A model generated the notes under the pieces. The model was not told where the DNA came from, searched no databases, and saw only the letters and a program-made list of their open reading frames with translations. Both the position numbers and the translations under genes were made by a program. From a virus (lineage: Duplodnaviria; Caudoviricetes): a DNA stretch of 42,398 nucleotides. Each line of letters opens with the position of its first letter. Positions within the stretch are counted from its first letter, which is position 1. The stretch lies in the IMG/VR virus record IMGVR_UViG_3300007959_000005, positions 1 to 42,398 of that record; one strand, given 5' to 3'. Below, one piece after another: positions 387-32,293 of the stretch.

Positions 387-2516
387 TCAGATGTTCGCCA
401 TGGCCTTCGGCAGATAGGTGATCAGTTTGGCACCTGCGGCGATGCTGTAGCCGGTGGGCACTCCGGCTGCCATGGTGATGTTACCGCCGCTCGGGGCACC
501 GCTCACGGTGGTCCAATGCCAGCGGGTGGTGGAGTCGGCCGCCTTGGTGATCATGACGCCAAGGACATCGCCTGAAGTCACCCCCGTTATGCTCGATACC
601 GCGATCACCGTCTCGCCGGCCGGCTCGCCCACGGTGGCCTGGGTGGTATGCCTCTTGGTGATGATCCACCCCGCCGGCTCGCCTGTCACACCGTCCAGGT
701 GCCAGACCCGCTGGTTGTTGGCAAGCACCCCGCCTTCCGGCGCGGTGTCCAGGGCAAGGTCGAGGCTGTTGAAATCGCCGTAGGTGTCGGCAGCCACTAG
801 GTCGAACCCGGGCCAGCTGGCCGGCACGGACTGGTTACCTTCGACCTTGACGCTCAGGCCGGTGATCTGCACGGGGTTGTCAAGGGCGAACACGCCGACC
901 CAGATGCTCTTGACGGTGTCGGCAACCTGGAAATAGGCCACATCCTCTGCCGCATACAGGGCATAGGCACCACCAAACCCTGCGGTGGTCTCAAACGACA
1001 GGGTGTTGTCGATATTCACGCTCAGCCCCTTGACGTGCCCACCACCGGAGAGGGTGTTCCCGGCGGCATCGAAGCAGCGGACCAGGATGTTGTGCTTGCC
1101 GCTGAGCTTCTCGACGCTGGCCCAAAACCGCTTGGTCTTGCTGGTATCGATCTTGCGGCCCAGCGCGGCGTTTATACCCAGCTGCAGATACTGGTCATTG
1201 AGCTCGATATCGGTTACCTGCATAAGCCCGAACGTGCCAGAGGAACCGAGCCAGGTGAAATCGGGGATCACGTAGCGCGGGCTGCCACTGGAAAAGCTAT
1301 TCACCAGGGCGCGCTGCTTCACGTTGCTGACGTTGAACACCTCCTGGGTACCCAGCTTGGAGAGCGAGGTATTCCGGTTGGAAACCCAGTCCAGGGTATT
1401 GGTGCCGGGGTAGTCGGAGGCCGACTCGTCAATCTGGTCGTAGGCATTGACCGCGACAGGCCCCGCGGCATGGGCGTCCACATGGTTGAACCTGGCGGCA
1501 CCGGAAGCACCCAATACATAGTCCTGCTGCTCCAAATATCCGCCTATGATCTGATTCTGCTTGCTCTCGCCGGCATTGAACATGGTGTAGGCCTTGCCGG
1601 TGCCACCGCTGAAGATCTCGATCAAAGGCCCGTAGAACTTGTTCGTGCCGGCATCGAGGTTGTAGATGCCATACCGATTGACGGTGGTGTTGGTGGTGCC
1701 GTCCTCACTCCACCTGCCGCCCCAGATGGCATTCCCGTTGACATTGCCGCCGTTGGAATGGAGATACTCGCCGTACTGGTTGTTGAAGACCTCGCGCGGA
1801 TAAAACTGGGTGTCGTAAACGGTGCCGCTGGTCGAGTTGACGTAAAGCCCCTTCTCATGGCCACTGGCACCCCAGCGCACGGTGCTGCTGATGCAGTCCT
1901 TTATCTGGATCCCCACGTTGCCGGCGGTCCAGTTGGCAGGCGAACGCACAACCGTCACGTCGATAGTGGCGCGCTGCAGGCTGCCGGTAAAATCGATCCC
2001 CACGCCCGATCCGGTGCGGGTGAGGTATATTCCGGGCGACATGACCACCCCGATGTTTTTGTCGACCGTGGCCACCGCCGAGAAAGCCAGCGCATCGGTA
2101 ACGTACATGGTCTTGCCCACCGGGGTGGCGGCCACGGCGCTGCCCCAGTTGGTCACGGTGGTGCCGAACCATGCCAGGTAGCTATCCTGGTTCAGCACCA
2201 CGGACCCCGCACCGTCGAAAATCTGATAGGGACCGGATTGGATATAGCCCGTGCTGGTGAAGGTCTTACCGGTGGCTACCGTTATTTTACCGCCCTTCCA
2301 CACCATGATGGTGCGATTGCTGGTCTTGTTGTTTATGGCCATCGGCTGCGATACCACCACAGTCTTGCCGGCGGTCATCGGCGAGGCGAGTGCCGTCGAC
2401 AGATTCCTGAATCCGCCGGCGTCGATGCCCCAAGGGCCGCTCGTATTGGAGGGGCCAGCAACGGCGGGCAGTGCGGTTACGATAAGCAGCAACAGGGAAT
2501 AAAACAAGTATCTCAT
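387..2516 (-). CDS. Tailspike/receptor-binding protein, beta-helix-like, with an N-terminal signal-peptide-like leader
   Basis: Last gene after the baseplate and short fibre genes; 709 aa rich in G/S/T/N; YIQSGPYQIFDGAGSV tailspike-type N-terminal motif; leader MRYLFYSLLLLIVTALPAVA. Confidence 0.75.
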   Translation of the reverse strand: MRYLFYSLLLLIVTALPAVAGPSNTSGPWGIDAGGFRNLSTALASPMTAGKTVVVSQPMAINNKTSNRTIMVWKGGKITVATGKTFTSTGYIQSGPYQIFDGAGSVVLNQDSYLAWFGTTVTNWGSAVAATPVGKTMYVTDALAFSAVATVDKNIGVVMSPGIYLTRTGSGVGIDFTGSLQRATIDVTVVRSPANWTAGNVGIQIKDCISSTVRWGASGHEKGLYVNSTSGTVYDTQFYPREVFNNQYGEYLHSNGGNVNGNAIWGGRWSEDGTTNTTVNRYGIYNLDAGTNKFYGPLIEIFSGGTGKAYTMFNAGESKQNQIIGGYLEQQDYVLGASGAARFNHVDAHAAGPVAVNAYDQIDESASDYPGTNTLDWVSNRNTSLSKLGTQEVFNVSNVKQRALVNSFSSGSPRYVIPDFTWLGSSGTFGLMQVTDIELNDQYLQLGINAALGRKIDTSKTKRFWASVEKLSGKHNILVRCFDAAGNTLSGGGHVKGLSVNIDNTLSFETTAGFGGAYALYAAEDVAYFQVADTVKSIWVGVFALDNPVQITGLSVKVEGNQSVPASWPGFDLVAADTYGDFNSLDLALDTAPEGGVLANNQRVWHLDGVTGEPAGWIITKRHTTQATVGEPAGETVIAVSSITGVTSGDVLGVMITKAADSTTRWHWTTVSGAPSGGNITMAAGVPTGYSIAAGAKLITYLPKAMANI

Positions 2517-2528
2517 GCGGTTACTCTC

Positions 2529-2933
2529 CTAGAGTATGGTTTGCCAGGCGGTTCCGTCAAAACAGACGACACTCTTGTCGCCGGGCAGCAAGTACAGTTG
2601 CAAAAGACCGTCGATGGTGGAGGCGTCGGCACCGGCCACGGTCAATTGTCCATTACCGATGTTCTTCAACGTAAAACGCTTGCCGGCAGATAGCCCCGCA
2701 ATAGCCGGCAAAGAGAGTACGATATCGCCGCCGTCCGTGTTGCAGAAGAGGATGCCGTCGTTGTTGGAGACGACACCGGAAACCAGTATCGTCCGCACCG
2801 CGGTCCCCGTGGCGACTATGAAGGCCTGGACTGCGTTCAGCCAGCCAGCCGTAATGACCGTGCCCGGCGTATTGGTGGCGGGGTCGGCGTCATGGAACTG
2901 TCCATCTACGGTTTCTACCGGGAAATCAGGCAT
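2529..2933 (-). CDS. Short tail fibre / baseplate-anchoring adaptor
   Basis: N-terminus FHDADPATNTPGTVITAGWLNAVQ resembles the Mu-type fibre N-terminal motif; lies after gp48. Confidence 0.7.
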   Translation of the reverse strand: MPDFPVETVDGQFHDADPATNTPGTVITAGWLNAVQAFIVATGTAVRTILVSGVVSNNDGILFCNTDGGDIVLSLPAIAGLSAGKRFTLKNIGNGQLTVAGADASTIDGLLQLYLLPGDKSVVCFDGTAWQTIL

Positions 2934-2945
2934 CGCGTGCTCCTT

Positions 2946-3488
2946 TTATACGAACATAACGTGGGAATCGGCAGGCTTCAGATCCTCGAAAATGGCCTTC
3001 AGGTGGCGGTCGTCGCGGTACCAGCCCAGCGGCTCGCCCGCCGCCACCAGACCTGCCCGGGCAAACTGGGCAAAACCGCCGTCTATGGTTACTTGCCAGA
3101 CCCAGCGAGCGACCTGCCCGATCACCTCGTCGCCGCAGCGCATGCTACCGGCCATGGCCGGCCTGCATTCCACAAGGCTGATGGCAAAGCCGACGGTGGC
3201 CGCTATATCGATGAAATACTGGCGGTCCAGCCGCCCCTGGGCGCGCAATCGGTAGAGCACCTCGGCTACCCGCTCGCCGCGCCTGGCATCCGTCGCCGGT
3301 ATGATGCCCAGCATCTTCTCCCAGCGGGTAAAAAAGGCATCCGACAGGTGCGGAAACATCTCAGCCTCCAGGCTCGCAGCCGAGACATGCACCTGGTCCA
3401 GTTGCCGCGCCTCCACGGCCAGGTCGACCGCCTGGTCTCCACCCAGCTCCAGCGGCAGAAGCAGTGATAGCACGTCGCTATAGGACAC
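2946..3488 (-). CDS. Baseplate protein, Mu gp48/YmfQ (DUF2313)-like
   Basis: LLLP start, RWEKMLGI, YFIDIAATVGF and KPADSH motifs; synteny. Confidence 0.85.
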   Translation of the reverse strand: MSYSDVLSLLLPLELGGDQAVDLAVEARQLDQVHVSAASLEAEMFPHLSDAFFTRWEKMLGIIPATDARRGERVAEVLYRLRAQGRLDRQYFIDIAATVGFAISLVECRPAMAGSMRCGDEVIGQVARWVWQVTIDGGFAQFARAGLVAAGEPLGWYRDDRHLKAIFEDLKPADSHVMFV

Positions 3489-4266
3489 TGATCACCCCCG
3501 GCCGAATGGTCTGATAGTCGACCGGCAGCACGTTGACAGCCGGTGCCAGCACGATGGCGTCGTCGGCACCGTTTATGATGGCGATGTTAGCCAGCTGGAC
3601 CAGGTAGAGCGGCTGTCCGGATACCAGCGTGTTCATATAGGCAGTCACATCGGCCGCGGTTTGAGCGCGATCCGCAGCATCTCCTAGGGCCTGGATGGTG
3701 ATGTCGACCAAGAGCACCTGGGTTGCCAGTACCCTGAAGCCCCAACCGGTAACCGGCCGTACCAGGTCGATTGCGGAGCGCACCGCCTCGATCAGATCTG
3801 CATCGGGGACGATAGAACCGCTAGCGGGATCCGCGGCTATCACCACGTCGACCGTGCCCGGGCCGTTGGCTTCCGGAAAGCAGAAGGCCGAGGCCACGCC
3901 GGGCACCGCCATGGCCCATTTCACATAGTCATATCGGTTGCCGCCGGCGGGCGGCCGCCGGATGTAGTCGAGCAGCCGCGCCAGCAGCTCCGAGTCGCTC
4001 TCGCCCGCCTTAGGTGACACGCCCCTCACATAGGCGTGACGTTCCAGGTTGACTCGGCTGGCGGTATCCGGGAAGATTTGATCCCCGATATAGCCCTGTG
4101 CGGCGTAAAGACCCCACAGGGCGCTCGCAGTGCAGGCGCTCTTGATAAAGGCCAGGCTTCCCTTGCTGGTGTCGATGGGGTCGCCGGCCTGGTCCACCTG
4201 GTTGCGGTAGTCGGTTAACAGGCCGTTTAAGAGCTCGTCAAAGGATCTGTCAAAAGGGGTCTCCAC
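3478..4266 (-). CDS. Baseplate J-like wedge protein (Mu gp47)
   Basis: QIFPDTA, ESDSELLARL, PPAGGNRYDYVKWA and GPGTVDV motifs. Confidence 0.9.
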   Translation of the reverse strand: METPFDRSFDELLNGLLTDYRNQVDQAGDPIDTSKGSLAFIKSACTASALWGLYAAQGYIGDQIFPDTASRVNLERHAYVRGVSPKAGESDSELLARLLDYIRRPPAGGNRYDYVKWAMAVPGVASAFCFPEANGPGTVDVVIAADPASGSIVPDADLIEAVRSAIDLVRPVTGWGFRVLATQVLLVDITIQALGDAADRAQTAADVTAYMNTLVSGQPLYLVQLANIAIINGADDAIVLAPAVNVLPVDYQTIRPGVISVL

Positions 4267-4625
4267 TAGATGACCTCCACAAATTTGTCATAGCTGACCA
4301 CTCGGCCATGCTGGTCCTGCACGCTTATGCGTGCCTTGAGGCGGTTACGATCCTCTTGCCGGTCGATCTCCATTACCACCTCCACGCTGGCGGCACGGCC
4401 GGCGTCAATCAACCACTGGAGAGCGGCCCGTATATCGCCCTCTACAAGCCGGGCGGATCCATCGGTGTTCTTGAGTCGCTCCCGGCGCTTAAGCCCGAAG
4501 GAGGGATCCACAAAGAAGCTGCCCTGGGCGATCTCTACTGAGACGATCACGTTGGTCAAGAGGTCGTCGCCTCCCGCCATGCTCAGGTATAGCCTGCCGG
4601 CGCTGGTGGTTATTCCCTGGCTCAT
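4266..4625 (-). CDS. Baseplate protein, Mu gp46-like
   Basis: GSFFVDPSFG and ALQWLIDAGRA motifs; synteny. Confidence 0.85.
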   Translation of the reverse strand: MSQGITTSAGRLYLSMAGGDDLLTNVIVSVEIAQGSFFVDPSFGLKRRERLKNTDGSARLVEGDIRAALQWLIDAGRAASVEVVMEIDRQEDRNRLKARISVQDQHGRVVSYDKFVEVI

Positions 4626-5212
4626 GACATCACCTGATTCGGCGGTTCGGCAACCCCGGCACTTACCGGCTGGGTGTGCTCGTTATAGATGGTGCGCATC
4701 TCGGTCATGGACCCGGCAGAGTCGGCCACCTGGTCAAGGGCAGTGACGTTAGCGCCAATGATGTTGCCGGTTACCGCCAGGTCGCCAAGGATAGCTACAT
4801 CCTCGGTGCACTCAACCAGGGGTGTCTGCAGGGTGATCTTGGTGCTGGCTACCACGGTCACCTCGGGCGCGGTCACCGTCGCGCTCTGGGCTGCGATGGC
4901 TACCAGCGTGTCACAACCGGAGATCTCAATCTCCTTTCCGCTTTTCAGGTGTACCTTCTGCCCCTGCCAGTCGTGCAGGACAACCTCACCCTCGCTCAGA
5001 TCCAGGCGGTAGCGCCGGTCGTCGCTGCCAATGCAGGTGATAACGTTGCCCTCCACCACGATGATCAGCTCGGCGCCGGGCTTCGGGCTGCTGGCAAAGC
5101 CGTAGTGCTGCAAAAACTCGCGCTTGCTGAACTCTTCACCCGCCCGGCCGCTGCCGGAAAAGAGCCGCACCAGGCCGGCGGCCAGCGCTGTCAGTTTGCC
5201 CCTGATGATCAT
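4622..5212 (-). CDS. Baseplate spike, Mu gp45/gpV-like
   Basis: QHYGFASSP, DDRRYR and GEVVLHD motifs. Confidence 0.9.
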   Translation of the reverse strand: MIIRGKLTALAAGLVRLFSGSGRAGEEFSKREFLQHYGFASSPKPGAELIIVVEGNVITCIGSDDRRYRLDLSEGEVVLHDWQGQKVHLKSGKEIEISGCDTLVAIAAQSATVTAPEVTVVASTKITLQTPLVECTEDVAILGDLAVTGNIIGANVTALDQVADSAGSMTEMRTIYNEHTQPVSAGVAEPPNQVMS

Positions 5213-6318
5213 CGGCGCCCCCCGGCCAGTTTCCCGGCATCCTCTATCAAGCCCAGGGGGGAGAGCTTCAGGAGCGTGGTGCTGCCGCTCGACTTGTCCA
5301 GCTGAAAACTGCGGCCGGAGACCAGGAAGCTGCCGTGCACTCCGTGTACCGTGTCGGCCACCCGGGCCACCTTGTTGATGGTGAAGTTGCGCCCGTTCTG
5401 GGAGTGGCGCGGCACCTGGTAGCTCAGCCGGTAGCCGTCGTGGCGCTGCTTGTCCATAAGCAGCCGGGCGTGCTGCTTGGGGGTCTGGCTGTCGTTGTGC
5501 GAGAGCTGCACGAACGGCTTGTAAAAGGGGAAGCTCGGGTCGGTGACCGTGCCCGATATGTTCACCTTGCCGGCGTCTAACCCATCTAGGGTATCGGCCT
5601 GCTGCTGCCCCACCACGGTCACCTTGCTGTAGCGCTGGGAGATGTTGGCATCTTCCTCAGCCATCAGGACGTTGTTACCCAGACCCTCCGGGTTGAACAC
5701 GATCTCGTACTCAGGATCACCGCCGACCAGGGGGCGTCCAAAGACGAAGGTTCCGTTGGGCAACATGTAGAACATCTGCCCGCGCGAAATAGCGTACATC
5801 GAGAGCACCTGAAACTTCGACATGCCAGGGTGGATTTGGGCGATCCGTTCGGCGCCGTCGGCCCCCATGATCCCCTCGAGACCGTAACTGGCATCCCTGC
5901 TGCGCCGCGTCTTCAGCTTGCCCACCAGGTCTTTCTGGTAGAGGATCCTCTTGCTGTTGATGAAGGGGATATCCTTCAAGAGCATGTGGGCCAACTCGCT
6001 CAGCTTTTTCCCCTCCACCGTGACGAACTGTTCGCAGTACGAATCGACCACAAGCCCCATCAAATCGCGCCCTTCTATGGTCATGCGGGAGCCGTTCTTG
6101 TCGGTGCGCTTGCACCTGCGGTCCACGATGCCGGTCAGCTCCTCCTGGTCGTTCACCAGCAGCCGGCAGCGCGCCCCCAGGGAGATGTCGAATTCAGGCA
6201 GGCCAATCTCCAGGGAGAAGGCGTGATCCGCCACGTAGAGGTCGGCCTCCACGCGGTAGGATATAAAGTGCCTCACCTGGCGCCCATTCACCTCGAGGTA
6301 GATGGAGTCGTCGCTCAT
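5209..6318 (-). CDS. Baseplate hub, Mu gpP/gp44-like
   Basis: IEGRDLMGLVVD and RYSKVTVVGQ motifs; synteny. Confidence 0.88.
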   Translation of the reverse strand: MSDDSIYLEVNGRQVRHFISYRVEADLYVADHAFSLEIGLPEFDISLGARCRLLVNDQEELTGIVDRRCKRTDKNGSRMTIEGRDLMGLVVDSYCEQFVTVEGKKLSELAHMLLKDIPFINSKRILYQKDLVGKLKTRRSRDASYGLEGIMGADGAERIAQIHPGMSKFQVLSMYAISRGQMFYMLPNGTFVFGRPLVGGDPEYEIVFNPEGLGNNVLMAEEDANISQRYSKVTVVGQQQADTLDGLDAGKVNISGTVTDPSFPFYKPFVQLSHNDSQTPKQHARLLMDKQRHDGYRLSYQVPRHSQNGRNFTINKVARVADTVHGVHGSFLVSGRSFQLDKSSGSTTLLKLSPLGLIEDAGKLAGGRR

Positions 6319-7658
6319 GCCGCGCCTCCCGCCGGGGTGTAGATCTGTAACGTGCCGCTGGTTGCGTTGGGGTTGGCCAGGGTCGGGTTGATGGACCGGA
6401 TGCGCTCGGCATAGTGGTAGTCGAGGCCATACCTGAGGCAGACCAGGTGCAGCGGTATCGGGTTGTCCAGCTCGACGGTGATGATGCGCTCGCGCTCCAG
6501 CTTGACGCTCGAAACGTAGGTGAGGAGATCAAGCGCCTGGCCTTTCAGTGCCGTCATGGAGCGCGCCTGGTCGACACCCTGCTGCAGCCAGCTGCGCGTG
6601 GCGGCCAGGGTGGTTTCCAGCTGGCGCACGTCCATCACCACCGGTACCGGCTGCCCCAGATAGCGCCCCAGGGCGTCAAAGCTCTTGTTGCGCTCCGACT
6701 GGCGGACCGTCTGGCGGTCGGCCTCGTCGTCGGCATAGCAGTAGGCCGCCTCCAGGGCGATACGGCCGGCGCAGGCTATCACCAGGTGCTTCACCATGAG
6801 GCTGCGGGCTGCAGCGGCGGCCGCGGTCTGGGCAGCGGCCGGGGCGGACAGCGCGGTCACCAGATCCCTAAGGCCGGCATCCAGGCTGCGCAGGTAGTTG
6901 GCCGGGTAGTTGAGACTCGAATCGTAGAGCCTGGCCACGCGCTCCACGCATTTGGTCATGATGCCCAGGACGCGCCCGGGCAGCGTGCTCCGGAAGGTGG
7001 TGGTGGCCACCAGCGAATTTACCGGCTGCACAACCTGATTGGCCTCGGCCGACAAGGCCCCCAGCTGCGCATCGAGCGACCTGGCTATCTCGCGCTGGTA
7101 GACGCTTTTTATCTTGAGCTGTGCCAGCAAGGTCTGATCCGGATCAAGTTCGAGCCCGGCGTCAAAGCCCAGGGCAGCCATGTCGCGGGTCAGTTCCCCC
7201 TCCTGCTGCCCCTGACCTGAAGTAAAGGCCGTCTCGCCGGCACTGGTAACGTCGGTCGACGCGACCGGCACGATACTGTCGCGCATCTGCTCGACAAAGC
7301 TGAAGTCGACGACGGCAGTGCGCTGCTGGTCGTCGTGGCGCGTAGATACCGAATCGACCTTCCCTTTGAGGATGCCGTATTTCGGGTGGTTAAATTCCAG
7401 CAGCTCCTTGACCCTCATCAGGTCGATGAGCTTTAGGTGGTCATCGTAGTTTGACTGGGAGGCGCTATCAAAGAACCAGCAGCGCACCTTGACGATGCGC
7501 GCCTTCTGCCCCATGTCCTCCAGATCTGCGCCGTCGATAAAGGGGTAGTCGTAGCGGACGATTGCTTTTTCAAAGGTGTCATCCAGAGTCTCCATCTCAA
7601 GAACGATGTCGTTGACGCTGTCGCCGATCTTGCTTATGTAGCCCACTTCTTGCGCCAT
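6315..7658 (-). CDS. DNA circularization protein, Mu gpN/gp43-like
   Basis: YDYPFIDGADLEDMG and HPKYG motifs, with a C-terminal PLHLVCLRYG...INP segment. Confidence 0.88.
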   Translation of the reverse strand: MAQEVGYISKIGDSVNDIVLEMETLDDTFEKAIVRYDYPFIDGADLEDMGQKARIVKVRCWFFDSASQSNYDDHLKLIDLMRVKELLEFNHPKYGILKGKVDSVSTRHDDQQRTAVVDFSFVEQMRDSIVPVASTDVTSAGETAFTSGQGQQEGELTRDMAALGFDAGLELDPDQTLLAQLKIKSVYQREIARSLDAQLGALSAEANQVVQPVNSLVATTTFRSTLPGRVLGIMTKCVERVARLYDSSLNYPANYLRSLDAGLRDLVTALSAPAAAQTAAAAAARSLMVKHLVIACAGRIALEAAYCYADDEADRQTVRQSERNKSFDALGRYLGQPVPVVMDVRQLETTLAATRSWLQQGVDQARSMTALKGQALDLLTYVSSVKLERERIITVELDNPIPLHLVCLRYGLDYHYAERIRSINPTLANPNATSGTLQIYTPAGGAA

Positions 7659-9500: not shown

Positions 9501-9697
9501 TTCGTCACCGGTGGTTTTTTCTTACGCTTGACCTTCTGTTTAATCCCGGTCTTTTTGGGGTTAGACAGCTCGTCGTAGGCCTGGTCGTAGCTACGAATCT
9601 TTCCTCGGCTCATCCGGAGTATCTCCTCCTCCCGAAAGCCGATCTTCAACATCACTAGGATGTCCTTCCTCAGAGGCCGCAGCTTCCTTTCGAAAAA
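9497..9697 (-). CDS. Frameshift extension of the tail chaperone (gpGT-like)
   Basis: The alternative frame FERKLRPLRKDILVMLKIGFREEEILRMSRGKIRSYDQAYDEL...TK* is open from CTTTTTCGA to a TGA overlapping the tape-measure ATG. Confidence 0.7.
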   Translation of the reverse strand, partial: FFERKLRPLRKDILVMLKIGFREEEILRMSRGKIRSYDQAYDELSNPKKTGIKQKVKRKKKPPVTK

Positions 9698-10025: not shown

Positions 10026-10385
10026 TTAGTTCTCCGTCCGGGACTCGGCAGAGAGCTCGATGGTCTGCTTTGCCACGTTGTCCCCGTCGTATTTGATCTT
10101 GCCGACCTTGGTGGTGTAAATCCCGCCGTAGGTGATGCGGGTCCCATTCATTCGGTCGATGGTGAGCGTGCCACCAGCAACCTGGCGAAAGTCAAAGCTG
10201 GGGGCGTCGGACGGAATGATGTAATCCACGGTGAGCCCCTCGTAGCGCTGTGTAACCGCGGTATGACCGGTCTTATTCATCAGCTTGACCGATTTGAAAA
10301 TTTCGCTTTCGGGCTCCTCAACCGAATCGAAGTCTTCGATCTCCTGTCCATTTATCTCCAGCAAAACCTTGCTGACGTATTCCAT
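10026..10385 (-). CDS. Tail tube protein
   Basis: 119 aa, directly after the sheath gene. Confidence 0.8.
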   Translation of the reverse strand: MEYVSKVLLEINGQEIEDFDSVEEPESEIFKSVKLMNKTGHTAVTQRYEGLTVDYIIPSDAPSFDFRQVAGGTLTIDRMNGTRITYGGIYTTKVGKIKYDGDNVAKQTIELSAESRTEN

Positions 10386-10410
10386 CGGTTAAACCTCCAT
10401 TTAATGCGGG

Positions 10411-11838: not shown

Positions 11839-12041
11839 TACTGAGCACCTCCTTCTTTCTGGTCCTGGGTGCGGGCGGCCTTGGCGGCCGAGGCCGGCAC
11901 CTCCAGGAGCGAACCGTCATCCACCAGGCGACGGTAGTAAACGGTAGCGGGGACTTCGACCCCCTTGGGATCGTCGGTGATGTATTCGCGGGGGGCGGTT
12001 TCTTTGGGGCACTGCAGCCCGGGTGCGGCTTTTACCAGCAT
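11838..12041 (-). CDS. Mu gp38/DUF2635-like protein
   Basis: VKAAPGLQCP...YYRRLVDDGSL. Confidence 0.85.
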   Translation of the reverse strand: MLVKAAPGLQCPKETAPREYITDDPKGVEVPATVYYRRLVDDGSLLEVPASAAKAARTQDQKEGGAQ

Positions 12042-12088
12042 GTTGAACCTCCGTTAAAGAGTGATTTAAATTGGCTGTGACTGGGGCA

Positions 12089-14707
12089 TTACATGCCGAA
12101 CCCCAGGCCCCATAGTTTGGTGAAGCCGGCCGCCACCGACACTGCCACGGCCCCGATATCGACCCCGCCATAGCCTGCCGCTTTCACTGGAGACGATGAA
12201 CTCGGAGTCATATCGGCGAAGGTGAGGCCGGAGGCATTTGAGAGCAGCGGGTCCTGCGCTGTCAGGGAATGGTCGGCAAAGGCGATGCCGGTATCGGTCT
12301 GGGTGCTGGTCGGGAGGCTGGGGAGGTAGATGCCAGCCTGCACAGTCTCTGCCCCGTCCACCAGTGACACATCCGACTTGATGATGGCATAGGTGCTGGT
12401 CGTGTCCGGAGTAGTCGTCCAAGCAGGCGTTACGCTCAGCACCGTGGCGGTGTTATTGGTGATCGCACGGATCTGACCGGATCCGGTGCCGCCGGTGATG
12501 AGCAGCCAGTGTTGCATGGGACAGTTGGCGTCGTTCTTGGTGGTCGGGAAAGTCTTGCCAGAGTCGGTAAGCGTGCCACCTGTCACCACGCCCTGGGTCG
12601 AAAGCGTACCGCCTGCCGTGGCCGTGCCGGTATAGCTGTTCAGCAGGAGCTGCACCGGCGTTCCCGCACCCCATGCCAGCGTTCTGTCGGTCGCACTGGT
12701 ATAGGTGTAGGTCAGCGTGCCGCTGGACTTGGTGCTGAATGTCGGGTTCCAGAGCGCCACCCCGGCTACATTGGACAGGCCGGTGAAGGTGCCCTGGCGG
12801 TTGATGAGGGCATCACCTGCACCGGGAGTACCGCTGCCGCTGTAGCGGGCCTGGTAGTTGTGATCCAGGTTGAAGTCGAACTGAAGCACTTGTCCGCGCC
12901 AGATGCTTGCTGCGGCTACTGTACGTTTTCTTGCACCCGTGCTCGGTGAGGTTCCAATCCGCTTGGCCAGGTTGTTCCTGATGGTCAAACGAGTCACTAG
13001 GGAGTAGGTATCGGTGTCTTGCATATCACCAAAGCCTAACCACCCCTGCGGGTTACCGATGAAGGTGTTGTTTTCGATGGTGAACAGGTCGATCCAGTGC
13101 CGATGGTTGTACCCCAGCTCGATGTTCGGTGACCCATAGCCCGCACCATCAAGTCCCGCCTCGGTGATGAAGACGTTTCGCTTCACCTCGATATCAGTGG
13201 TATAGATATCGTTGAAAGTGTTGGCTACGACTCCGTGATGAAAGGAGTTGTGCACGATGTTATCTGTGAATCTCGAATATGAAGCGTAGTGAAATGTTCT
13301 GTTGATAAAGTGAAATTCGTTATTCTTTATGACCAGTGGTGATCCGCTAAGCCCCCCCGCCTCTATTACTCGCTGATCTCCAGAACCACCGACACCATAC
13401 AAGACGTTGCCGCTTATTTCAGAAGCCGAAAAGGTGGCCAGACCAGGTTGGGCATACAACAGGTTGTTAGCGATTACCCCCGTGTTGCCTTTTACCTGGA
13501 TCCCCGTGTAATCGGTGGTGGGAGAATAGATGGAAGTTAAAATGAAATGTCCGTACAGATTCAGTACGTTGTCGCTGATGTTGACGTATGTGAAAGAGTC
13601 CCGATAAGAGGATATGGCATAGCCGTATGTTCCATTGCCGCCATCGTTGTTGAACGTGTTCCCGGTGATCTGGATCAGGTCGGCGGCGGTGCCGTTCACC
13701 TTTTTCAACCCCAGCGATTCGGAGCAGTAAGTGAATGTGGAGTTCTTCAGGTAGAAGAGCTGGTCGGCCCCAGCCGTTGCCGACTTCTTGTTTTGCACGT
13801 CGAGCGTCCGGCCCACGTCGGCGGGGGTGATGTTCTTGCCCATGTACGAAAAGTTGCAGTGGTCAAAGAGCGCCGTATTGAACGTGGTGCTCTGGGTTGA
13901 GGAAATTCCCCACCCTTTGCTCACAGCGGTGTAGTTGTAGGTCTTGGTGAAGGCCGGGTTCCCGGACGATGAAACATGGTAAAACCAGACCATGCCCATG
14001 TCGTAGTTGATGTAATACTTCCCGGCGCTGTTCACTTCGGCCAGGGTGAACACTTCGGTTGTCAGGATGGTCGAGGGCGTCTTGGCTGAGAAAGATACCG
14101 TGTTGATCCAGGCATGAGTAAAGGCCACACAGCCGATGTTGTTCACCGGGTCATACTTCCAGGATGTGCCGGAGAACGCCTCGCTGGCAACCGCATTGCT
14201 GTTGCTGTAGGCACCCGAAGGAGAGGTAAAGGTGATCGGCTTGAGGGACGTGCCGATGGCAGAGATGTTGCCCTTGTTGAGAATGAACGAGGTGTAGTCA
14301 CCAGCCACATCGCCGATGATGGTCGTCCCAGGTTGCGGGGCAAAGGTGCCGTACCGGTTGACCAGCATCAAAGTGTTGGTGGTCAGATCGGTGCCCCTGA
14401 GCGTCAAGCTCACCCCGTCGGCTACCTGGTACGTGCCGAAGCTGGACGAGCTTGCGCCGTTGATGGTAATGGCATGGCCCACACTGGAGGCGTTGCTGCC
14501 ATAGGTCCGGTTCACGTCCTGGACGATGACCGCGCCGCTCACGATGGTGATCGTGTCGCCGTCCACTGGTGCGACTCCGCCCACCCACGTCGAACCGGCA
14601 GAGGCAAGCGCCGGAGTCCCGGTGGTGCCGACTGCGTTCGAGGTAAGCGCAGCCGCCCAGGCGGAACATGGCAGCAGCAAGATGATCAGCAGCAGAAACA
14701 TTTTCAT
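12089..14707 (-). CDS. Large (872 aa) beta-helix-like fibre/adhesin with a signal peptide
   Basis: The start MKMFLLLIILLLPCSAWA overlaps the upstream stop (ATGA). STWVGGVAP..GDTITI is G8-like, followed by Asn-rich repeats (ITGNTF, IKNNEF, IENNTF) and a DIGA end motif. Confidence 0.7.
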   Translation of the reverse strand: MKMFLLLIILLLPCSAWAAALTSNAVGTTGTPALASAGSTWVGGVAPVDGDTITIVSGAVIVQDVNRTYGSNASSVGHAITINGASSSSFGTYQVADGVSLTLRGTDLTTNTLMLVNRYGTFAPQPGTTIIGDVAGDYTSFILNKGNISAIGTSLKPITFTSPSGAYSNSNAVASEAFSGTSWKYDPVNNIGCVAFTHAWINTVSFSAKTPSTILTTEVFTLAEVNSAGKYYINYDMGMVWFYHVSSSGNPAFTKTYNYTAVSKGWGISSTQSTTFNTALFDHCNFSYMGKNITPADVGRTLDVQNKKSATAGADQLFYLKNSTFTYCSESLGLKKVNGTAADLIQITGNTFNNDGGNGTYGYAISSYRDSFTYVNISDNVLNLYGHFILTSIYSPTTDYTGIQVKGNTGVIANNLLYAQPGLATFSASEISGNVLYGVGGSGDQRVIEAGGLSGSPLVIKNNEFHFINRTFHYASYSRFTDNIVHNSFHHGVVANTFNDIYTTDIEVKRNVFITEAGLDGAGYGSPNIELGYNHRHWIDLFTIENNTFIGNPQGWLGFGDMQDTDTYSLVTRLTIRNNLAKRIGTSPSTGARKRTVAAASIWRGQVLQFDFNLDHNYQARYSGSGTPGAGDALINRQGTFTGLSNVAGVALWNPTFSTKSSGTLTYTYTSATDRTLAWGAGTPVQLLLNSYTGTATAGGTLSTQGVVTGGTLTDSGKTFPTTKNDANCPMQHWLLITGGTGSGQIRAITNNTATVLSVTPAWTTTPDTTSTYAIIKSDVSLVDGAETVQAGIYLPSLPTSTQTDTGIAFADHSLTAQDPLLSNASGLTFADMTPSSSSPVKAAGYGGVDIGAVAVSVAAGFTKLWGLGFGM

Positions 14708-15045
14708 CGCACGTCGATCCTTTGGAATTTGGCGTTGGCCGGAGTACGGATGAAGTTGACAAAGACGTACGTGGAAAAAAGGCTTTCCTGAGTAGCGTCG
14801 TATGCGGTCACCCTGAAATACCACTTCTCCATCGGGTTGACCGTCACGGTCGCCGGTGGCCGTGAAACGGTGGTGTAGCCTCGGTAGACGAATGTCCGGG
14901 CATTGCCCGAGTAGTTTCCGTAGTAGAGCCGGTAACCATCCGGCTTGGCGCCGGCGGTGGAATCATCCCAGGTAATCGTCACGACGGCGGCATGTGCGAC
15001 CGCGGCCGTCAGCACCATGAATAAAGCCAGCAGCATCCGCTTCAT
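14704..15045 (-). CDS. Fibronectin type III-like small protein with a signal peptide
   Basis: VTITWD..GYRLYYG..WYFRVTAYD..ES.FS pattern; leader MKRMLLALFMVLTAAVAHA; strong RBS. Confidence 0.8.
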   Translation of the reverse strand: MKRMLLALFMVLTAAVAHAAVVTITWDDSTAGAKPDGYRLYYGNYSGNARTFVYRGYTTVSRPPATVTVNPMEKWYFRVTAYDATQESLFSTYVFVNFIRTPANAKFQRIDVR

Positions 15046-15054
15046 GTACCCTCC

Positions 15055-16149
15055 TTACCTGAAGTCCTGGGCCGCTACGCAATAGACGTTGGTTCCGTCC
15101 AGGTAGCAGGAAATGAAGTCGACCGCGCTGGCCGTGGCGGTGATCGTCGGGACCGTGGCGGCCGGCCACTTGATGCCGGTCGAGGTGATGGTGCCCGTGG
15201 GGGTCGACGCCTGCACCACCTTGATCCCGATGACGGCAGTCTTGCCGCTCGGCTGGGTGAACGAAGCGCCCGAAAGAGCGCAGGCCGAGCCGGCGGTGAG
15301 CGTGATGACCTGCCGTGCCCCGTTGGCCGCCGTGATAGGGGCAGCCAGGGAAGTGGTGCAGGCCGTGGTGTACTCTGCCGGATAGTAAACGGCGGCCAGA
15401 GTGGCCCCCGGCTGCAGCGCGCTGTCGGCTTTACCGCCCTGGGTGGAGGTTGCCGCGTCGGTGATGCCGTACCCGGCCAACGTGGTCGGTTTGTTTTTGA
15501 TCGAAGCACCGCCAGAAGTCAGGGCCCAATCGGTATACTGGCCATAAAGCCCCGCAGAAGTACCGGTGGTGTCCTGGTTCAGGATCGGGAAGTTGGTGAG
15601 TCCTGCCGCGCTCCCGGTCGGGCTGAGATAATCCGTCCCGGCCACGGCCGCCGACACGGTGCCGCTGCCGTTGGCCTTCATGATTCCGCTTATCGCGCCG
15701 GCGCCGCCTCGGGCGGCAGCGACAGTGCCTGAGGTGAGGTTGGAGGCATTCGACGCACTCGCGGGAGTTGCGTAATCGGTACCGGCAACGAGCGCGCTTT
15801 GCTTGGCACCCCAGGTCGCCTTCTCCGTGTCGGTGGCGAAGCGGTAGGAGGCGCTCTGGGTAATATTCGCCGGGTTGGTCGTGTCGATCGTCGCCGAAGA
15901 GGCCAGCGCTCCGCCGTCCTTGATGACATTCCCCGTCGTGTTGTTGAACACCGCCACATGGTTGGCCACGATGGTGCCGGTGGGTACGACGCTACCGGAT
16001 CCGCTGCCGCCCGTACCATCCGCCCCCTTGGGACCTTGCGGCCCGGGGACGATGATCTTGAGAACCTGGACACCGCTTCCCAGGGCGGAAACACTGAAGG
16101 AGAGCAATACCAGGACAATAGCTAAGCGACTGTAATAGGTAATCTTCAT
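15055..16149 (-). CDS. Fibre-like protein (364 aa) with a short collagen-like motif and a signal peptide
   Basis: Start MKITYYSRLAIVLVLLSFSVSA (ATGA overlap); GPQGPKGADG; KPTTLAGYGITDA fibre repeat; fibre-type C-terminal domain. Confidence 0.72.
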   Translation of the reverse strand: MKITYYSRLAIVLVLLSFSVSALGSGVQVLKIIVPGPQGPKGADGTGGSGSGSVVPTGTIVANHVAVFNNTTGNVIKDGGALASSATIDTTNPANITQSASYRFATDTEKATWGAKQSALVAGTDYATPASASNASNLTSGTVAAARGGAGAISGIMKANGSGTVSAAVAGTDYLSPTGSAAGLTNFPILNQDTTGTSAGLYGQYTDWALTSGGASIKNKPTTLAGYGITDAATSTQGGKADSALQPGATLAAVYYPAEYTTACTTSLAAPITAANGARQVITLTAGSACALSGASFTQPSGKTAVIGIKVVQASTPTGTITSTGIKWPAATVPTITATASAVDFISCYLDGTNVYCVAAQDFR

Positions 16150-16532
16150 CGGGTCACCACCGGCACTACCATGATTTTGCCGCGCAGCAGGTAAGTACGC
16201 TGCCCGGACGGGTCGATCTGCAGCAGGTCCCACACGCCGTGCTTGTTGGTGGCTGCGGCGGTGCTGGCCTGCGAAAGCGATAGGGTCACCTTGTTGGTGG
16301 TGACGATGGTGCTGAAGTTGAAGAAGGGCGCCGATGAGTAGTCGGTCCTGGCCTGGGCCTGGTAGCTGTAGCCGGTCAGGTCGACGGCACGCCCGTTGCT
16401 CTCGGCCGGGGTGATGGCCAAAGCGAAGCTTTCGCCCCCCTGGACGGTCAGATCGTAGGGGATGGGGAAGCCATCCAGGGCGAAGGCGCTGGTGACTGCC
16501 AGGAGTACCAGGGCGATGATCAGGTATCTCAT
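16146..16532 (-). CDS. Virion accessory/adaptor protein (BppU-N/LtfC-like) with a signal peptide
   Basis: DLTGYSYQAQAR..VWDL..LLRGKIMV pattern; leader MRYLIIALVLLAVTSAFA. Confidence 0.65.
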   Translation of the reverse strand: MRYLIIALVLLAVTSAFALDGFPIPYDLTVQGGESFALAITPAESNGRAVDLTGYSYQAQARTDYSSAPFFNFSTIVTTNKVTLSLSQASTAAATNKHGVWDLLQIDPSGQRTYLLRGKIMVVPVVTR

Positions 16533-17080
16533 GGTTGGGCTCCGAGACTCACGGTGTCGCTGGCATCGACCTGGTCGTCGCCGGGCTTCAGGTAGTAGTT
16601 GAGCGCGACGGTCAGGAGGTCTTCGGCCAGATCGTCGTCATCTATGTTGAGGATGAAGCTGGTGGCAAACTCCAGGTCGTAGACGATGAAGTTGCCCTTG
16701 AAGTCCTCTTCGCTGGTCACGTCTTTGAAGCTTCCCGGGAGCAGGTCGGTGATCTTGAGCCCTACCCGCTGCCGCGCGAGCATCCGGATCACGGCGAAGA
16801 CCAGGGGGTGAATGGCGTCGCGCCGGGCTTCCTCACCACGCGCGTCGCTCATTCTCAGCTGCAGGTGCACCTGGCAGTTAACCCGGAAGCTGACCAGCCC
16901 CACCTTTTCGAGCTTTCCCTCGTAGATCGCCACGACGAGCGCCGGGTCGGTGAAGACGTAGCGCATGTTCTTCTGGCGCCGCGCTGCCTTGAAGGCGGTC
17001 ATGCGCTGCACCAGGAACTCCTCGATGGCTATTTCGATGTCCCCGGGCGTGTTCACCGGGGTGGGGGTCGGATCGGCCAT
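16529..17080 (-). CDS. Mu gp37-like head-tail joining/tail terminator protein
   Basis: Follows gp36; C-terminal LNYYLKPGDD..D.V motif. Confidence 0.7.
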   Translation of the reverse strand: MADPTPTPVNTPGDIEIAIEEFLVQRMTAFKAARRQKNMRYVFTDPALVVAIYEGKLEKVGLVSFRVNCQVHLQLRMSDARGEEARRDAIHPLVFAVIRMLARQRVGLKITDLLPGSFKDVTSEEDFKGNFIVYDLEFATSFILNIDDDDLAEDLLTVALNYYLKPGDDQVDASDTVSLGAQP

Positions 17081-17508
17081 TAGTAGTTTTTTAACCTCTC
17101 GGTGGTGAAGACGCCCACCGGCGCGGGCGACACGGCGATGGTCTGACCCTGCTGGGTCGGAGCGTCCTTGCCGGAGATGCCGAGCTGCAGGTCTCCCTTG
17201 CCGATGGAGACGAGCAGTTTGACCGCGTTGGTGTAACGTTTCTCCCTGTTTTCGGGCACATTCTCGCGCCGGGAGAACAGGTGGTAGCAGACGATGTCCA
17301 GGTCAAGCGAGGCTAAGAAGGGCGGCACCGGGCTGAAGGGCACGTTGTAGAGGCTGGAGCAGTAGCCGTCGACCTGGGCCGAGGCGCGCTCCAGGCACTT
17401 GTCAAGGATGTCCTGGTTGACCACGCCGAGGTTATCGTCGTCGGTCAGCTGGATCAGGGTCGCCTCGGGGATCTCGCCCAGGATATCGTCTTTCGTGCTG
17501 TAGGCCAT
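17080..17508 (-). CDS. Mu gp36/DUF1320 head-tail adaptor
   Basis: MAYST..LIQLTDD..ASAQVDGY..Y.VP..DIVCYHL..RY..A. Confidence 0.92.
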   Translation of the reverse strand: MAYSTKDDILGEIPEATLIQLTDDDNLGVVNQDILDKCLERASAQVDGYCSSLYNVPFSPVPPFLASLDLDIVCYHLFSRRENVPENREKRYTNAVKLLVSIGKGDLQLGISGKDAPTQQGQTIAVSPAPVGVFTTERLKNY

Positions 17509-17562
17509 GTCTGTACTCCGGTGCTACCGAAGGGGCGGACTGCGCCCCCTCGGCTCAGTTGG

Positions 17563-18003
17563 TTATTCCCGGTCCTGGCACATCGTCAAAGATGCGCTGG
17601 TGTTGTTGCCGAAGGTCGAGATTGTGTAGGAGGCGTACCCCCTATTGACCGCAATGCTGCCATTGGAAGCGGGCATCCCGGTGGCGTTGGCGCCAAGCTT
17701 GCGCTGCACCACAAACGGGGTGCCGGTGCTGCTGTTTACGACCGTCCAATCGGCCTTCTTGTACCAGCTGTTGGAGGTGTAAAGGTTGAAAGTCTGGATG
17801 GCCCCGGCGTGGTGGATAGCCTTGGTCACGCAAACCGAGCCTTTAAGGTTGGGGGCGGTGGCAGTGTTGTTCTGTACGACGATTCCGTCGGAGTAGATAG
17901 GCTGCCCGGGCTTGACGTTGACGGTTGTGATGGCGTAGGCGACGCCGGCGACGGCGATGGCCAACATGGCGATAACGCCGATCAGAATGCTTTTGTTTCT
18001 CAT
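17563..18003 (-). CDS. Hypothetical head-region protein with a signal peptide
   Basis: Leader MRNKSILIGVIAMLAIAVAGVAYA; AAAGGAG RBS. Confidence 0.7.
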   Translation of the reverse strand: MRNKSILIGVIAMLAIAVAGVAYAITTVNVKPGQPIYSDGIVVQNNTATAPNLKGSVCVTKAIHHAGAIQTFNLYTSNSWYKKADWTVVNSSTGTPFVVQRKLGANATGMPASNGSIAVNRGYASYTISTFGNNTSASLTMCQDRE

Positions 18004-18032
18004 GGAGCGCTCCTTTGTCGATGGAGGTGCTT

Positions 18033-18060
18033 AAAAGGGGGCGCAGCCTGCGCTGCGCCC
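18033..18060 (-). terminator. Probable intrinsic terminator after the capsid gene
   Basis: 9-bp stem GGGCGCAGC/GCTGCGCCC, followed by CCTTTT on the minus strand. Confidence 0.55.
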
Positions 18061-18090
18061 TGCTGCTTTAACTGGCTCTATTGCCGATTA

Positions 18091-19263
18091 TCACGCCGGG
18101 GTGATGACGACCACGTCGCACAGGCCCAGGGAATTGACCACCGGCAACGGCTTGGATTCGGCGATCAGCGCGTAACCGCTGCCGTCGGGGTGGCGCACCG
18201 GCTTGACGAAGAAGGGCATGGGCTCCAGGTTGCCGTCCAGGTCGTCGATGGATGCGTAGGGCATCCGGTGCCCTGCGTCGGTAGCGATGGCTTTCAGAGT
18301 GTCCTTGGGGACGATGGGAGTGAAGAGGCCGGTGACCGGGCTCCAGTACTCCTCCGCTCTCAGCTCGACCTTGATGGTGCCGATCATGATGTAGTTGTCC
18401 TCAAGCTTCATGCTGACGCCCGCCTCGGACTGGAGCTTGGTCGAGGTGAGGATTTTGGAAACGATGGTGAAGAGCGCCTTGAAAGCATCCTCGCCGGCCC
18501 AGAAGAGAACCTCGCCGCCTACGCCGATGCGCTGGAAAACCTTGCGCAGCTGGATAAAGGTGTCGACGATGTCCACGGCCTTGATGGCCGGATCGTCCCA
18601 GTATTTGTAGCTGCCGGCATCGAGGCTCTGCACCCCGCCGTAATCGATCTCGAAGGTGTCGAAACCGCCCCCTTCGAGCTGCACCGGGTAGGAAAGCTTG
18701 CCGGTGAGTGCCGAAGCGCACATGGCCTCGGTGGTGGCGCGCACGGTGCGACGCAGCACGTCGGTCTTGTTCTGCGCCCAGATCTCCAGCTGGTTCTTGC
18801 TGTTGGGACCGCCCTGGGAGAAGAGGCGCAGGTTGTTAAGATCGGCACCGGTGATGTCGATCTTCGGGTGGATCGGGAGCGGCTCGTAGAACTCGGTGCG
18901 GCCGGTTGCCCCGGTGATGGAGATGGCAGGGGACCCGCGGCGACTCAGGGCCATGGCTCTGATGTACTGGCGGACGATGTCGGAGCCGATCAGCGGACCG
19001 GGCTGCTGCGGGCGGTCTTTGAAGATGCGGTCAAGACAGACGGTCGGGTATGCGGGCCCCAGCACCTGGAGGTACCGGATGATGGCTTCCCGGGTGAAGA
19101 GGTTGCGGATGTTAACGAATCCGGCCAGCAGCAGTGTCTTCCCGAGATGGTCGGCATGGGTAGCAGCCATAGCCTCGTGGCCGGAGCCAAGGGCAAAGGC
19201 CACGATGGCCAGTGCCGTGAGGAGCGACCAGGAAAATAAGGTCTTGAATCTGTTAGTGAGCAT
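18091..19263 (-). CDS. Major capsid protein (lambda gpE-like family) with an N-terminal signal-like extension
   Basis: Follows the protease and decoration genes; RRGSP, LRRTVRATTEAMCASALTGKL and ESKPLPV motifs; AAAGGAG RBS before MLTNRF. Confidence 0.85.
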   Translation of the reverse strand: MLTNRFKTLFSWSLLTALAIVAFALGSGHEAMAATHADHLGKTLLLAGFVNIRNLFTREAIIRYLQVLGPAYPTVCLDRIFKDRPQQPGPLIGSDIVRQYIRAMALSRRGSPAISITGATGRTEFYEPLPIHPKIDITGADLNNLRLFSQGGPNSKNQLEIWAQNKTDVLRRTVRATTEAMCASALTGKLSYPVQLEGGGFDTFEIDYGGVQSLDAGSYKYWDDPAIKAVDIVDTFIQLRKVFQRIGVGGEVLFWAGEDAFKALFTIVSKILTSTKLQSEAGVSMKLEDNYIMIGTIKVELRAEEYWSPVTGLFTPIVPKDTLKAIATDAGHRMPYASIDDLDGNLEPMPFFVKPVRHPDGSGYALIAESKPLPVVNSLGLCDVVVITPA

Positions 19264-31765: not shown

Positions 31766-31912
31766 GGCGGAAGGCTGAGCCGATCCGTCATGAAACTGCG
31801 CCGCGACCTTGCGGGAATCCTTCCCGCTAGTTTCGCTGCCGGCGCCTTACCGTGGGGACTATCCCCAGGGGCACAACCAGATTAATTCGCACGGACATAG
31901 CCGCCGTAACGG

Positions 31913-32272: not shown

Positions 32273-32293
32273 TACCTCAAAATAGATAAAGGG

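What the first reader, a model, noticed from the sequence alone, without database searches (positions are those of the whole stretch)
387..19263. Seven late-operon virion proteins carry canonical Sec/SPase I signal peptides, suggesting an export-dependent virion module
Seen in sequence: each has a basic N-region, a hydrophobic core and an A-x-A-type cleavage site. They are the tailspike (MRYLFYSLLLLIVTALPAVA|G), the 872-aa beta-helix protein (MKMFLLLIILLLPCSAWA|A), the Fn3 protein (MKRMLLALFMVLTAAVAHA|A), the fibre (MKITYYSRLAIVLVLLSFSVSA|L), the adaptor (MRYLIIALVLLAVTSAFA|L), the 146-aa head-region protein (MRNKSILIGVIAMLAIAVAGVAYA|I) and the capsid protein. Starts are supported by RBSs or stop/start overlaps. 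Portal, sheath, tube, baseplate and gp36/37 have no leader. Established: tailed-phage structural proteins normally assemble in the cytoplasm without signal peptides. Inference: spikes and appendages may be exported, folded in the periplasm and added at or after lysis, or they may be displayed by the infected cell.
Basis: partly seen in the sequence, partly recalled or inferred. Interest (0 to 1): 0.9.

Follow-up and report, generated by a model that had tools for sequence, protein, structure and literature searches.

The report
Export signals on phage virion proteins
A Mu-like prophage puts conserved bacterial export-type leaders on six spike-, fibre- and appendage-like proteins, which likely fold outside the cytoplasm and would join the particle at lysis, and a different two-part membrane leader on its capsid protein, which is predicted to tether it to the inner membrane until cut off; tailed phages are thought to be built wholly in the cytoplasm.

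Summary

(1) Six genes carry ordinary Sec/SPase I-type leaders that recur in relatives. My rule (not SignalP) flags 22 of 28 tailspike homologues and 8 of 10 adaptor copies, against 0 of 641 core virion proteins. The spike body is 43% identical to a leaderless, virion-anchored tailspike, and the only leaderless fibre gene is a 134-aa stub. Likely: export, then docking at lysis.

(2) The capsid leader is not canonical. It is ~48 aa: signal-like helix, A-x-A, neutral or acidic loop, second hydrophobic patch, invariant Gly. It is on 39 of 120 homologues, changes state at least 9 times on the tree with the core start exactly kept, and also sits on Mu gpT- and GP7-type capsids. Likely: a cleaved membrane tether rather than export.

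The two occur independently (5/14 vs 7/55, p=0.057). Ten literature searches found neither. This scan noted signal-bearing tail fibres on other DNA (17 notes) and one capsid leader. Export, cleavage and virion location are untested.

The parts
387..2516 (-). 709-aa tailspike: 20-aa Sec-type leader, conserved ~100-aa N-module, variable beta-helix-type body; last gene of the tail operon (Mu fibre slot)
   Evidence: residues 150-706 are 43% identical over 572 aligned residues to leaderless P0152, whose N-terminus matches phage tail/tail-fibre PHROGs
2529..2933 (-).
   Evidence: PHROG tail-fibre N-terminus; model pLDDT 84; fold match to CBA120 TSP4 residues 79-176, Z 10.7, rmsd 2.1, 89 aligned; synteny
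12089..14707 (-). 872-aa predicted right-handed beta-helix protein with 18-aa Sec-type leader, 4 Cys
   Evidence: Atlas leads below 0.9 to beta-helix clusters; weak N-terminal relatives also have leaders
14704..15045 (-). 113-aa small protein with 19-aa Sec-type leader (Fn3-like by eye only)
   Evidence: no relative found in the fetched loci
15055..16149 (-). 364-aa side-fibre-like protein with 22-aa leader, short collagen-like stretch, 4 Cys in the C-terminal domain
   Evidence: weak PHROG hit; the 3 relatives displayed of 4 found all carry leaders
16146..16532 (-). 128-aa LtfC-like (L-fibre collar/assembly) adaptor with 18-aa leader
   Evidence: phrog_1084 E 8e-17, phrog_3304, PF23926 weak; leader in 2 of 3 database relatives and 8 of 10 genomic copies
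17563..18003 (-). 146-aa protein directly after the capsid gene, 24-aa leader, Cys pair; no known family
   Evidence: leader in 8 of 8 called homologues, the window's own copy included; alignment; Atlas uninformative
18091..19263 (-). 390-aa lambda gpE-type (PF03864) HK97-fold major capsid protein
   Evidence: fold search against PDB capsids of Chi, YSD1 and lambda
19120..19263 (-). 48-aa bipartite capsid leader: basic n-region, hydrophobic helix with invariant Trp12, A-M-A (31-33), short loop, second hydrophobic patch ending in invariant Gly48

Best explanation
Six appendage genes carry conserved Sec-type leaders and are likely exported to the periplasm, cleaved by host signal peptidase I and added to cytoplasm-built particles when the cell lyses, while the capsid's two-part leader likely tethers the capsid precursor to the inner membrane with the capsid domain in the cytoplasm until a cut after the invariant Gly frees it. 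Shown: the leaders, their starts, their conservation, the homologies and the gene order. Inferred for track 1: export and cleavage (high confidence, about 0.85); that the spike docks on the 134-aa baseplate stub and the LtfC-like/fibre set on the tail or neck at lysis (about 0.55). Inferred for track 2: a hairpin topology resembling filamentous-phage procoat (recalled), loop outside, and removal at G|F by a probably host-encoded protease, giving the same N-terminus as leaderless sisters (about 0.55). The tether is optional and may speed up or localise prohead assembly.
For: Spike: of 28 homologues of its N-module, 22 pass the leader rule, 2 more have one by eye, 2 look start-truncated and 2 are leaderless tailspike-type proteins. 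The body is shared with anchor-bearing P0152 (43% over 572 residues), so the leader plus N-module stands where a virion anchor normally is. A conserved N-module joined to variable C-termini is the usual receptor-binding-protein pattern. In 7 of 7 viral loci the spike follows the baseplate and fibre genes, and in 6 of 7 it directly follows a leaderless stub. That stub ends in one conserved ~90-aa domain fused to several different anchors. In this phage the stub is the only leaderless fibre gene. CBA120 tailspikes bind their hub directly in vitro (PMC8825819 abstract). Adaptor-fibre pair: leaders on both in 7 of 10 genomic copies by rule and one more by eye; the 2 leaderless adaptors are followed by leaderless genes. 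Capsid: leader on 39 of 120 listed homologues; n-region basic in 37/37, A-x-A in 36/37, loop charge <=0 in 36/37, second patch mean hydropathy 2.0; Gly at the same place in 38/38, Trp in 39/39. 18 of 18 distinct leaders have an SD at the leader start and none has an SD-backed start at the core. Leaderless sisters begin M-x-N-I-R with their own SD, exactly where a cut after Gly would leave F-x-N-I-R. 13 state changes on the tree, at least 9 forced. The same leader is on Mu gpT, GP7 and other gpE capsids.
Against: No export, cleavage or virion location was measured, and SignalP was not available. The stub's domain matches TSP4 XD1, which PMC8825819 says does not bind trimeric partners in TSP4, gp9 or gp10. 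The same fold binds glycans in CpaA and another bacterial factor, and is the C-terminal domain of a depolymerase, so the stub could be a minimal receptor-binding protein itself. Adaptor-fibre cassettes often sit right after lysis genes (6 of 10). Spike-like leader proteins also occur in non-phage-looking cellular contexts (L198, L203, L207-L209). Cysteine counts in 26 spike homologues are even in only 13, so disulfide folding does not explain the export. The window's own second hydrophobic patch is short (10 uncharged residues against a median of 18), marginal for a membrane span. No protease for the Gly site was identified.
Confidence: 0.5

Rival explanations
1. The six accessory proteins are exported but never join the virion. 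They act as late-expressed soluble depolymerases or lectins that clear capsule or biofilm for progeny, or as envelope-displayed exclusion factors (Lom/Bor/Cor-like morons, recalled). The 134-aa stub is then the real receptor-binding protein.
For: The XD1 fold is glycan-binding in bacterial proteins. Cassettes lie next to lysis genes in 6 of 10 copies. Cellular leader-bearing relatives of the spike exist. Signal-bearing phage enzymes in print are read as lysis helpers (PMC10975493 passage; PMC6116005 passages).
Against: The spike keeps one N-module across variable bodies and stays directly behind a stub in 6 of 7 viral loci of different tail types. A soluble enzyme has no need of an exported LtfC-like collar protein. 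Leaderless versions of the adaptor-fibre pair match ordinary tail-fibre families (L013).
Confidence: 0.25
2. The capsid leader is a true signal peptide, and part or all of the capsid protein is exported (as a decoy, for exclusion, or for assembly outside the cytoplasm), making one export module.
For: The first 33 residues pass the signal-peptide rule in 38 of 39 leader-bearing homologues. The second patch is short in several, this one included. A weak co-occurrence trend with exported genes (5/14 vs 7/55, p=0.057).
Against: Portal, protease, terminase and decoration protein have no leader (0 of 641). There is only one capsid gene and no internal start. Simple export would not need the conserved second patch and invariant Gly. 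Each trait occurs without the other (G126, G129).
Confidence: 0.1
3. All seven leaders are uncleaved or slowly cleaved membrane anchors that hold virion proteins at the cytoplasmic face for membrane-templated assembly, with no export.
For: It needs no two-compartment assembly. T4 proheads form on the membrane (recalled).
Against: The six accessory leaders have the N-in signal pattern, a conserved small-residue cleavage site (P-A-x-A in the spike family) and no second hydrophobic segment to return the chain to the cytoplasm.
Confidence: 0.1
4. The leaders are mis-called upstream extensions or chance hydrophobic N-termini.
For: Database gene calls choose starts inconsistently (P0127, P0128, P0146, P0147).
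Against: SD or coupled starts; conservation of the pattern at low identity; 0 of 641 controls; no alternative start at the capsid core.
Confidence: 0.03

Closest known systems
Branched tailspike hubs: CBA120 TSP4 / T4 gp10 / G7C gp66 (PMC8825819, abstract and passages read)
   Same: A baseplate-anchored protein with an XD-type beta-sandwich beside a tailspike that lacks its own baseplate anchor; partners associate directly in vitro.
   Different: The paper describes no export signal in the passages read. The stub here has only the XD1-like domain, not the XD2/XD3 docking domains, and the spike carries an export leader.
Leaderless podoviral-type tailspike P0152 (PHROG 1640/6518-type N-terminal anchor)
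   Same: Same body, 43% identical over 572 residues.
   Different: A virion anchor at the N-terminus instead of signal peptide plus N-module.
T5 L-shaped fibre assembly protein LtfC (PF23926, phrog_3304/1084) with a side fibre
   Same: Homologous adaptor followed by a fibre gene.
   Different: Both genes carry leaders here and in most copies found in the likely host order. Leaderless copies also exist (L013, L223, L225).
Filamentous phage (M13) procoat, recalled
   Same: Design of the capsid leader: basic N-terminus, signal helix, A-x-A site, non-basic loop, second hydrophobic segment.
   Different: Here the second segment is shorter and is followed by a whole HK97-fold capsid domain. No sequence homology was tested.
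Cleaved capsid propeptides: HK97 delta domain; Prp-cleaved leader of Staphylococcus phage 80alpha (recalled; the latter also named in earlier scan notes)
   Same: An N-terminal extension that is absent from the mature shell.
   Different: Those are soluble; this leader is hydrophobic, optional among sisters and portable across three Pfam capsid families.
Exported phage proteins in print: signal-peptide and SAR endolysins (PMC6116005, PMC3765740 passages), Cor-like lipoproteins (PMC4936722 passage), PBR31 gp40 esterase (PMC10975493 passage)
   Same: Phage late genes that use the host export machinery.
   Different: They are lysis or exclusion factors, not capsid, spike or fibre proteins. No lipobox here.

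Membership tests
Sec/SPase I signal peptide (six accessory proteins) | Basic n-region, hydrophobic h-region, small residues at -3/-1, at a real start | tested here: met
   own rule plus starts; conserved in homologues
Sec/SPase I signal peptide (six accessory proteins) | SecYEG-dependent export and LepB cleavage | not testable with these tools
   needs fusions or proteomics; SignalP was not available either
Canonical signal peptide (capsid) | Mature domain begins right after the A-x-A site | tested here: not met
   about 15 more residues with a second hydrophobic patch and invariant Gly precede the core start used by leaderless sisters
Lipoprotein or Tat signal | Lipobox Cys or twin-arginine motif | tested here: not met
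   lipobox rule negative for all seven; no RR motif in the leaders
Mu-like (transposable) prophage with contractile tail | MuA/MuB-type genes, Mor, gp36/37, sheath, tube, gp43-48 baseplate | tested here: met
   PHROG and Pfam hits
Lambda gpE-type HK97-fold major capsid protein | PF03864 match and HK97 fold | tested here: met
   E 2e-36; Foldseek to Chi, YSD1 and lambda capsids, E down to 9e-15
Virion tailspike | Body homologous to tailspikes and position in the fibre slot | tested here: met
Virion tailspike | Own N-terminal particle-binding anchor | tested here: not met
   replaced by leader plus N-module; no PHROG or Pfam hit for the protein
Virion tailspike | Present on purified particles | not testable with these tools
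   no cultured match among 50,697 phage records
TSP4/gp10-type docking hub (134-aa stub) | XD2/XD3 jelly-roll domains that bind partner spikes | tested here: inconclusive
   the model matches XD1 (TSP4 79-176) and spans no XD2/XD3; whether a terminal XD1 can dock a spike is open
M13-type procoat hairpin (capsid leader) | Two membrane segments around a non-basic loop | tested here: inconclusive
   charge pattern fits in 36/37, but the second segment is short; topology untested
Phage with its own leader protease (rhomboid or signal peptidase) | PF01694 or PF10502 gene in the phage | tested here: not met
   0 of 5 leader-bearing phage records, 3 of them at least 90% complete; the window's record is estimated 82% complete

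The most novel reading that the evidence does not exclude
Tailed phages of this bacterial group build their particles in two compartments. Heads assemble from a membrane-tethered capsid precursor that a host protease releases at an invariant glycine, using a leader that has spread across at least three capsid families. Spikes, side fibres and head appendages are secreted, fold in the periplasm and click onto the particle only when the inner membrane breaks.
Probability: 0.4. Interest if true: 0.92.

Novelty: new variant of a known kind. Interest (0 to 1): 0.8.

Why it matters
Tailed-phage assembly is taken to be cytoplasmic. If receptor-binding spikes are exported and added at lysis, particles would become infectious only as the cell opens, and spikes could fold away from their assembly site. 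Annotation pipelines that set aside signal-bearing genes as non-structural would then miss host-range genes in such phages. A portable, optional membrane leader on HK97-fold capsids supplies natural with/without pairs of close sisters, which makes the question of why some proheads assemble on membranes directly testable. It also points to an unidentified protease cutting after an invariant Gly.

Tried and rejected
N-glycosylation as the reason for export. Sequons in the six proteins were 39 against 28 expected (p about 0.012), but leaderless Asn/Ser/Thr-rich controls show the same excess (z 3.4) and all called leader proteins show none (z 0.2). STT3 passed the cut-off in only 2 of 61 family genomes. 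Rejected.

Disulfide pairing as a general reason. All six have even Cys counts (2, 4, 0, 4, 0, 2), but spike homologues are even in 13 of 26. Kept only for the 146-aa family.

Phage-encoded rhomboid or signal peptidase: not found in 5 records.

Leader profile against 1.84 billion representatives: 5 hits, 2 capsid fragments and 3 repetitive proteins. A 47-position profile is too weak to measure spread.

Cultured phages: no match to this capsid or spike. For three other leader-bearing capsids only the top 25 of 103, 320 and 515 records were seen. Alignments began at the core, and the two checked are leaderless.

PDB sequence searches for stub and spike: nothing significant. Atlas for the 146-aa protein: no usable lead. 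Sequencing runs: no RNA holder listed.

My first two gene callers broke long genes; the counts use the third (onward). Ten capsid rows were left out of the tree because my pattern missed their core start, and that tree is the quick one.
Full report
Setting. The window is a nearly whole Mu-like prophage with a contractile tail: transposase and B protein, Mor, lysis genes, terminase, portal, protease, capsid, gp36/37, sheath, tube, tape measure and gp43-48 baseplate. The nearest named relatives of its capsid and spike are labelled Geobacteraceae, Desulfuromonadaceae or Desulfobacteraceae. The host of this record itself is inferred from that, not shown. L111 is the window's own DNA and is not independent.

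Observation. All seven N-termini are as described, with SD-like or stop/start-coupled starts. SignalP was not available, so I wrote a rule (basic n-region, hydrophobic 9-mer on the recalled Kyte-Doolittle scale, A-x-A-like site). It flags exactly these 7 of 39 genes called up to 31.5 kb, 0 of 641 homologues of core virion and packaging proteins, and 3 of 1072 internal windows. The feature is real and far above chance.

Track 1, the tailspike. A search with residues 21-220 returned 28 homologues besides the query. 22 pass the rule, two more have a leader by eye after an alternative start, two look start-truncated, and two are leaderless. One of these, P0152, begins with a phage tail anchor and shares the spike's body at 43% over 572 residues. 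The leader-bearing forms keep a ~100-aa N-module and vary in the rest. Of 14 loci found with the baseplate gene, 2 end before the fibre slot, 6 have a leader-bearing gene there (three of them near-copies of others), and 6 have an ordinary leaderless fibre, though three of those loci end soon after it. One such slot protein matches Gordonia phage minor tail or spike proteins at 25-28%. In 7 of 7 viral loci found with the spike alignment it follows the baseplate and fibre genes, and in 6 of 7 it directly follows a leaderless stub. The stubs end in one ~90-aa domain joined to different anchors. The model of the window's 134-aa stub (pLDDT 84) matches CBA120 TSP4 79-176 (Z 10.7, rmsd 2.1, 89 aligned), the matching region of a T4-like baseplate protein (Z 9.7) and the C-terminal domain of an Acinetobacter depolymerase (Z 11.5). 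PMC8825819 (abstract and passages read) identifies that region as XD1. It says XD1 does not bind trimeric partners because flanking domains block it, and that the fold binds glycans in bacterial proteins. In the stub the domain is terminal, so one face is free, but docking remains an inference; the complex could not be predicted. Related leader proteins also occur outside obvious prophages, which may be where the module came from.

Track 1, the other five. The 128-aa protein is LtfC-like. Leaders are present in 2 of 3 database relatives and 8 of 10 copies from 7 of 201 genomes. There the next gene also has a leader (7 by rule, 1 by eye), while both leaderless copies precede leaderless genes. 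Six of the ten follow lysis genes. The 364-aa fibre has leader-bearing relatives in the 3 loci displayed of 4 found. The 872-aa protein is a predicted beta-helix by weak Atlas leads; the 2 weak relatives displayed of 3 found have leaders. The 146-aa protein follows capsid genes, has a leader in 8 of 8 called copies and at least two Cys in each of the five relatives counted. The 113-aa protein had no relative in my loci. For these last three, virion location rests on gene position alone.

Track 2, the capsid. It is a lambda gpE-type HK97-fold protein. Of the 120 listed homologues (145 found, query included), 39 carry a 44-55-aa leader and 81 do not. The leader has a basic start (37/37), a hydrophobic helix with Trp (39/39), A-x-A (36/37, in a permissive window), a neutral or acidic loop (36/37), a second hydrophobic patch and a Gly at a fixed position (38/38). 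In DNA, all 18 distinct leaders have an SD at their ATG and none has an SD-backed start at the core. Leaderless sisters such as L006, L017, L023, L082 and L085 start with their own SD exactly one residue after that Gly. On a quick tree of 110 cores the state changes 13 times, at least 9 forced by strong branches; database start calls were checked in DNA only for some. A profile of the leader alone gave 11 matches in 9 of 239 genomes. Seven lie on capsid ORFs: three of the model's own family, two other gpE subfamilies, one Mu gpT and one GP7. Of the four others, all weak, I read two (non-capsid) and left two unread. Two more gpE subfamilies show with/without pairs (L245/L246, L253/L254). Trp and Gly align across all nine compared. 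The exact loss point implies that the mature protein starts after the Gly. Portal, protease and terminase are leaderless, so the capsid domain should stay cytoplasmic; a hairpin tether like filamentous-phage procoat (recalled) fits best. Against this, the second patch is short, only 10 uncharged residues in this phage. No rhomboid or signal peptidase gene was found in 5 leader-bearing phage records. Because the leader spans phages with different head proteases, a host enzyme is the likelier cutter (inference).

One module or two. A leader-bearing gene lies within 4 kb downstream in 5 of 14 leader-capsid loci and 7 of 55 leaderless ones (p=0.057). G126 has a leaderless capsid with exported 146-aa and spike genes; G129 has a leader capsid and no flagged gene in the tail region. 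They are two traits that meet in this phage.

What is known. Ten full-text searches found no report of signal peptides on tailed-phage capsid, spike or fibre proteins. I read passages of bioRxiv 2026.10.24.761521, PMC4936722, PMC3426561, PMC3765740, PMC6116005, PMC9658991 and PMC10975493, which concern sortase substrates, lipoproteins and lysis enzymes; the other hits were seen as listings only. The library lacks most subscription papers and I opened no supplements, where SignalP tables of phage genomes could mention such cases. This scan's earlier notes report signal-bearing tail fibres in at least 17 other genomes and one capsid leader in a Prevotella-type phage; they are unchecked and not independent support. 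What this window adds is the leaderless twin of the spike body, the conserved stub pairing, and the portable capsid leader with its fixed Gly.

Verdict. Real, conserved and not described in the papers searched. The mechanism is inferred (0.5 for the two-track model; about 0.85 that the six are exported). Novelty: new variant of a known kind; interest 0.8.

Noticed in passing
window 30506-33531 (-): Diversity-generating retroelement: reverse transcriptase 30506-31765, Avd 31913-32272, template repeat about 31635-31741, and two variable repeats (32300-32406, 80%; 32878-32984, 84%) in two Lcl_C-domain genes. The targets lie among non-structural genes, not in the tail; G126 has the same layout.
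   Followed up: partly
window about 20829-21090 (-): Remnant of a ferritin-like (bacterioferritin-type) gene with an internal deletion and frameshift just before the head protease gene; intact 155-aa copies lie in L081 and L082/L120.
   Followed up: partly
L240, L236, L234, L235, L245, L253: The capsid leader also occurs on Mu gpT (PF10124), GP7 (PF20911) and other gpE subfamilies in the same bacterial order.
   Followed up: yes
L181 15453-15914 (-); L107-L109 after the capsid gene; L215: Apparently unrelated small leader-bearing genes occupy the slot after the head genes in other phages, spirochaete prophages included.
   Followed up: no
G128 after gp48; L187 rc 268-1806; L191 6604-7854; L188 8551-9936: Further leader-bearing fibre-like genes inside baseplate regions; the L191 one ends in the same XD1-like domain as the stub.
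   Followed up: partly
L198, L203, L207, L208, L209: Cellular-looking copies of the spike N-module family, one with a lipoprotein-type signal and one beside a glycosyltransferase-like gene; a possible source of the exported spikes.
   Followed up: no
window 41488-42063 (+): Lipoprotein-like gene next to the repressor, a candidate lysogen-expressed exclusion factor; no family hit.
   Followed up: no
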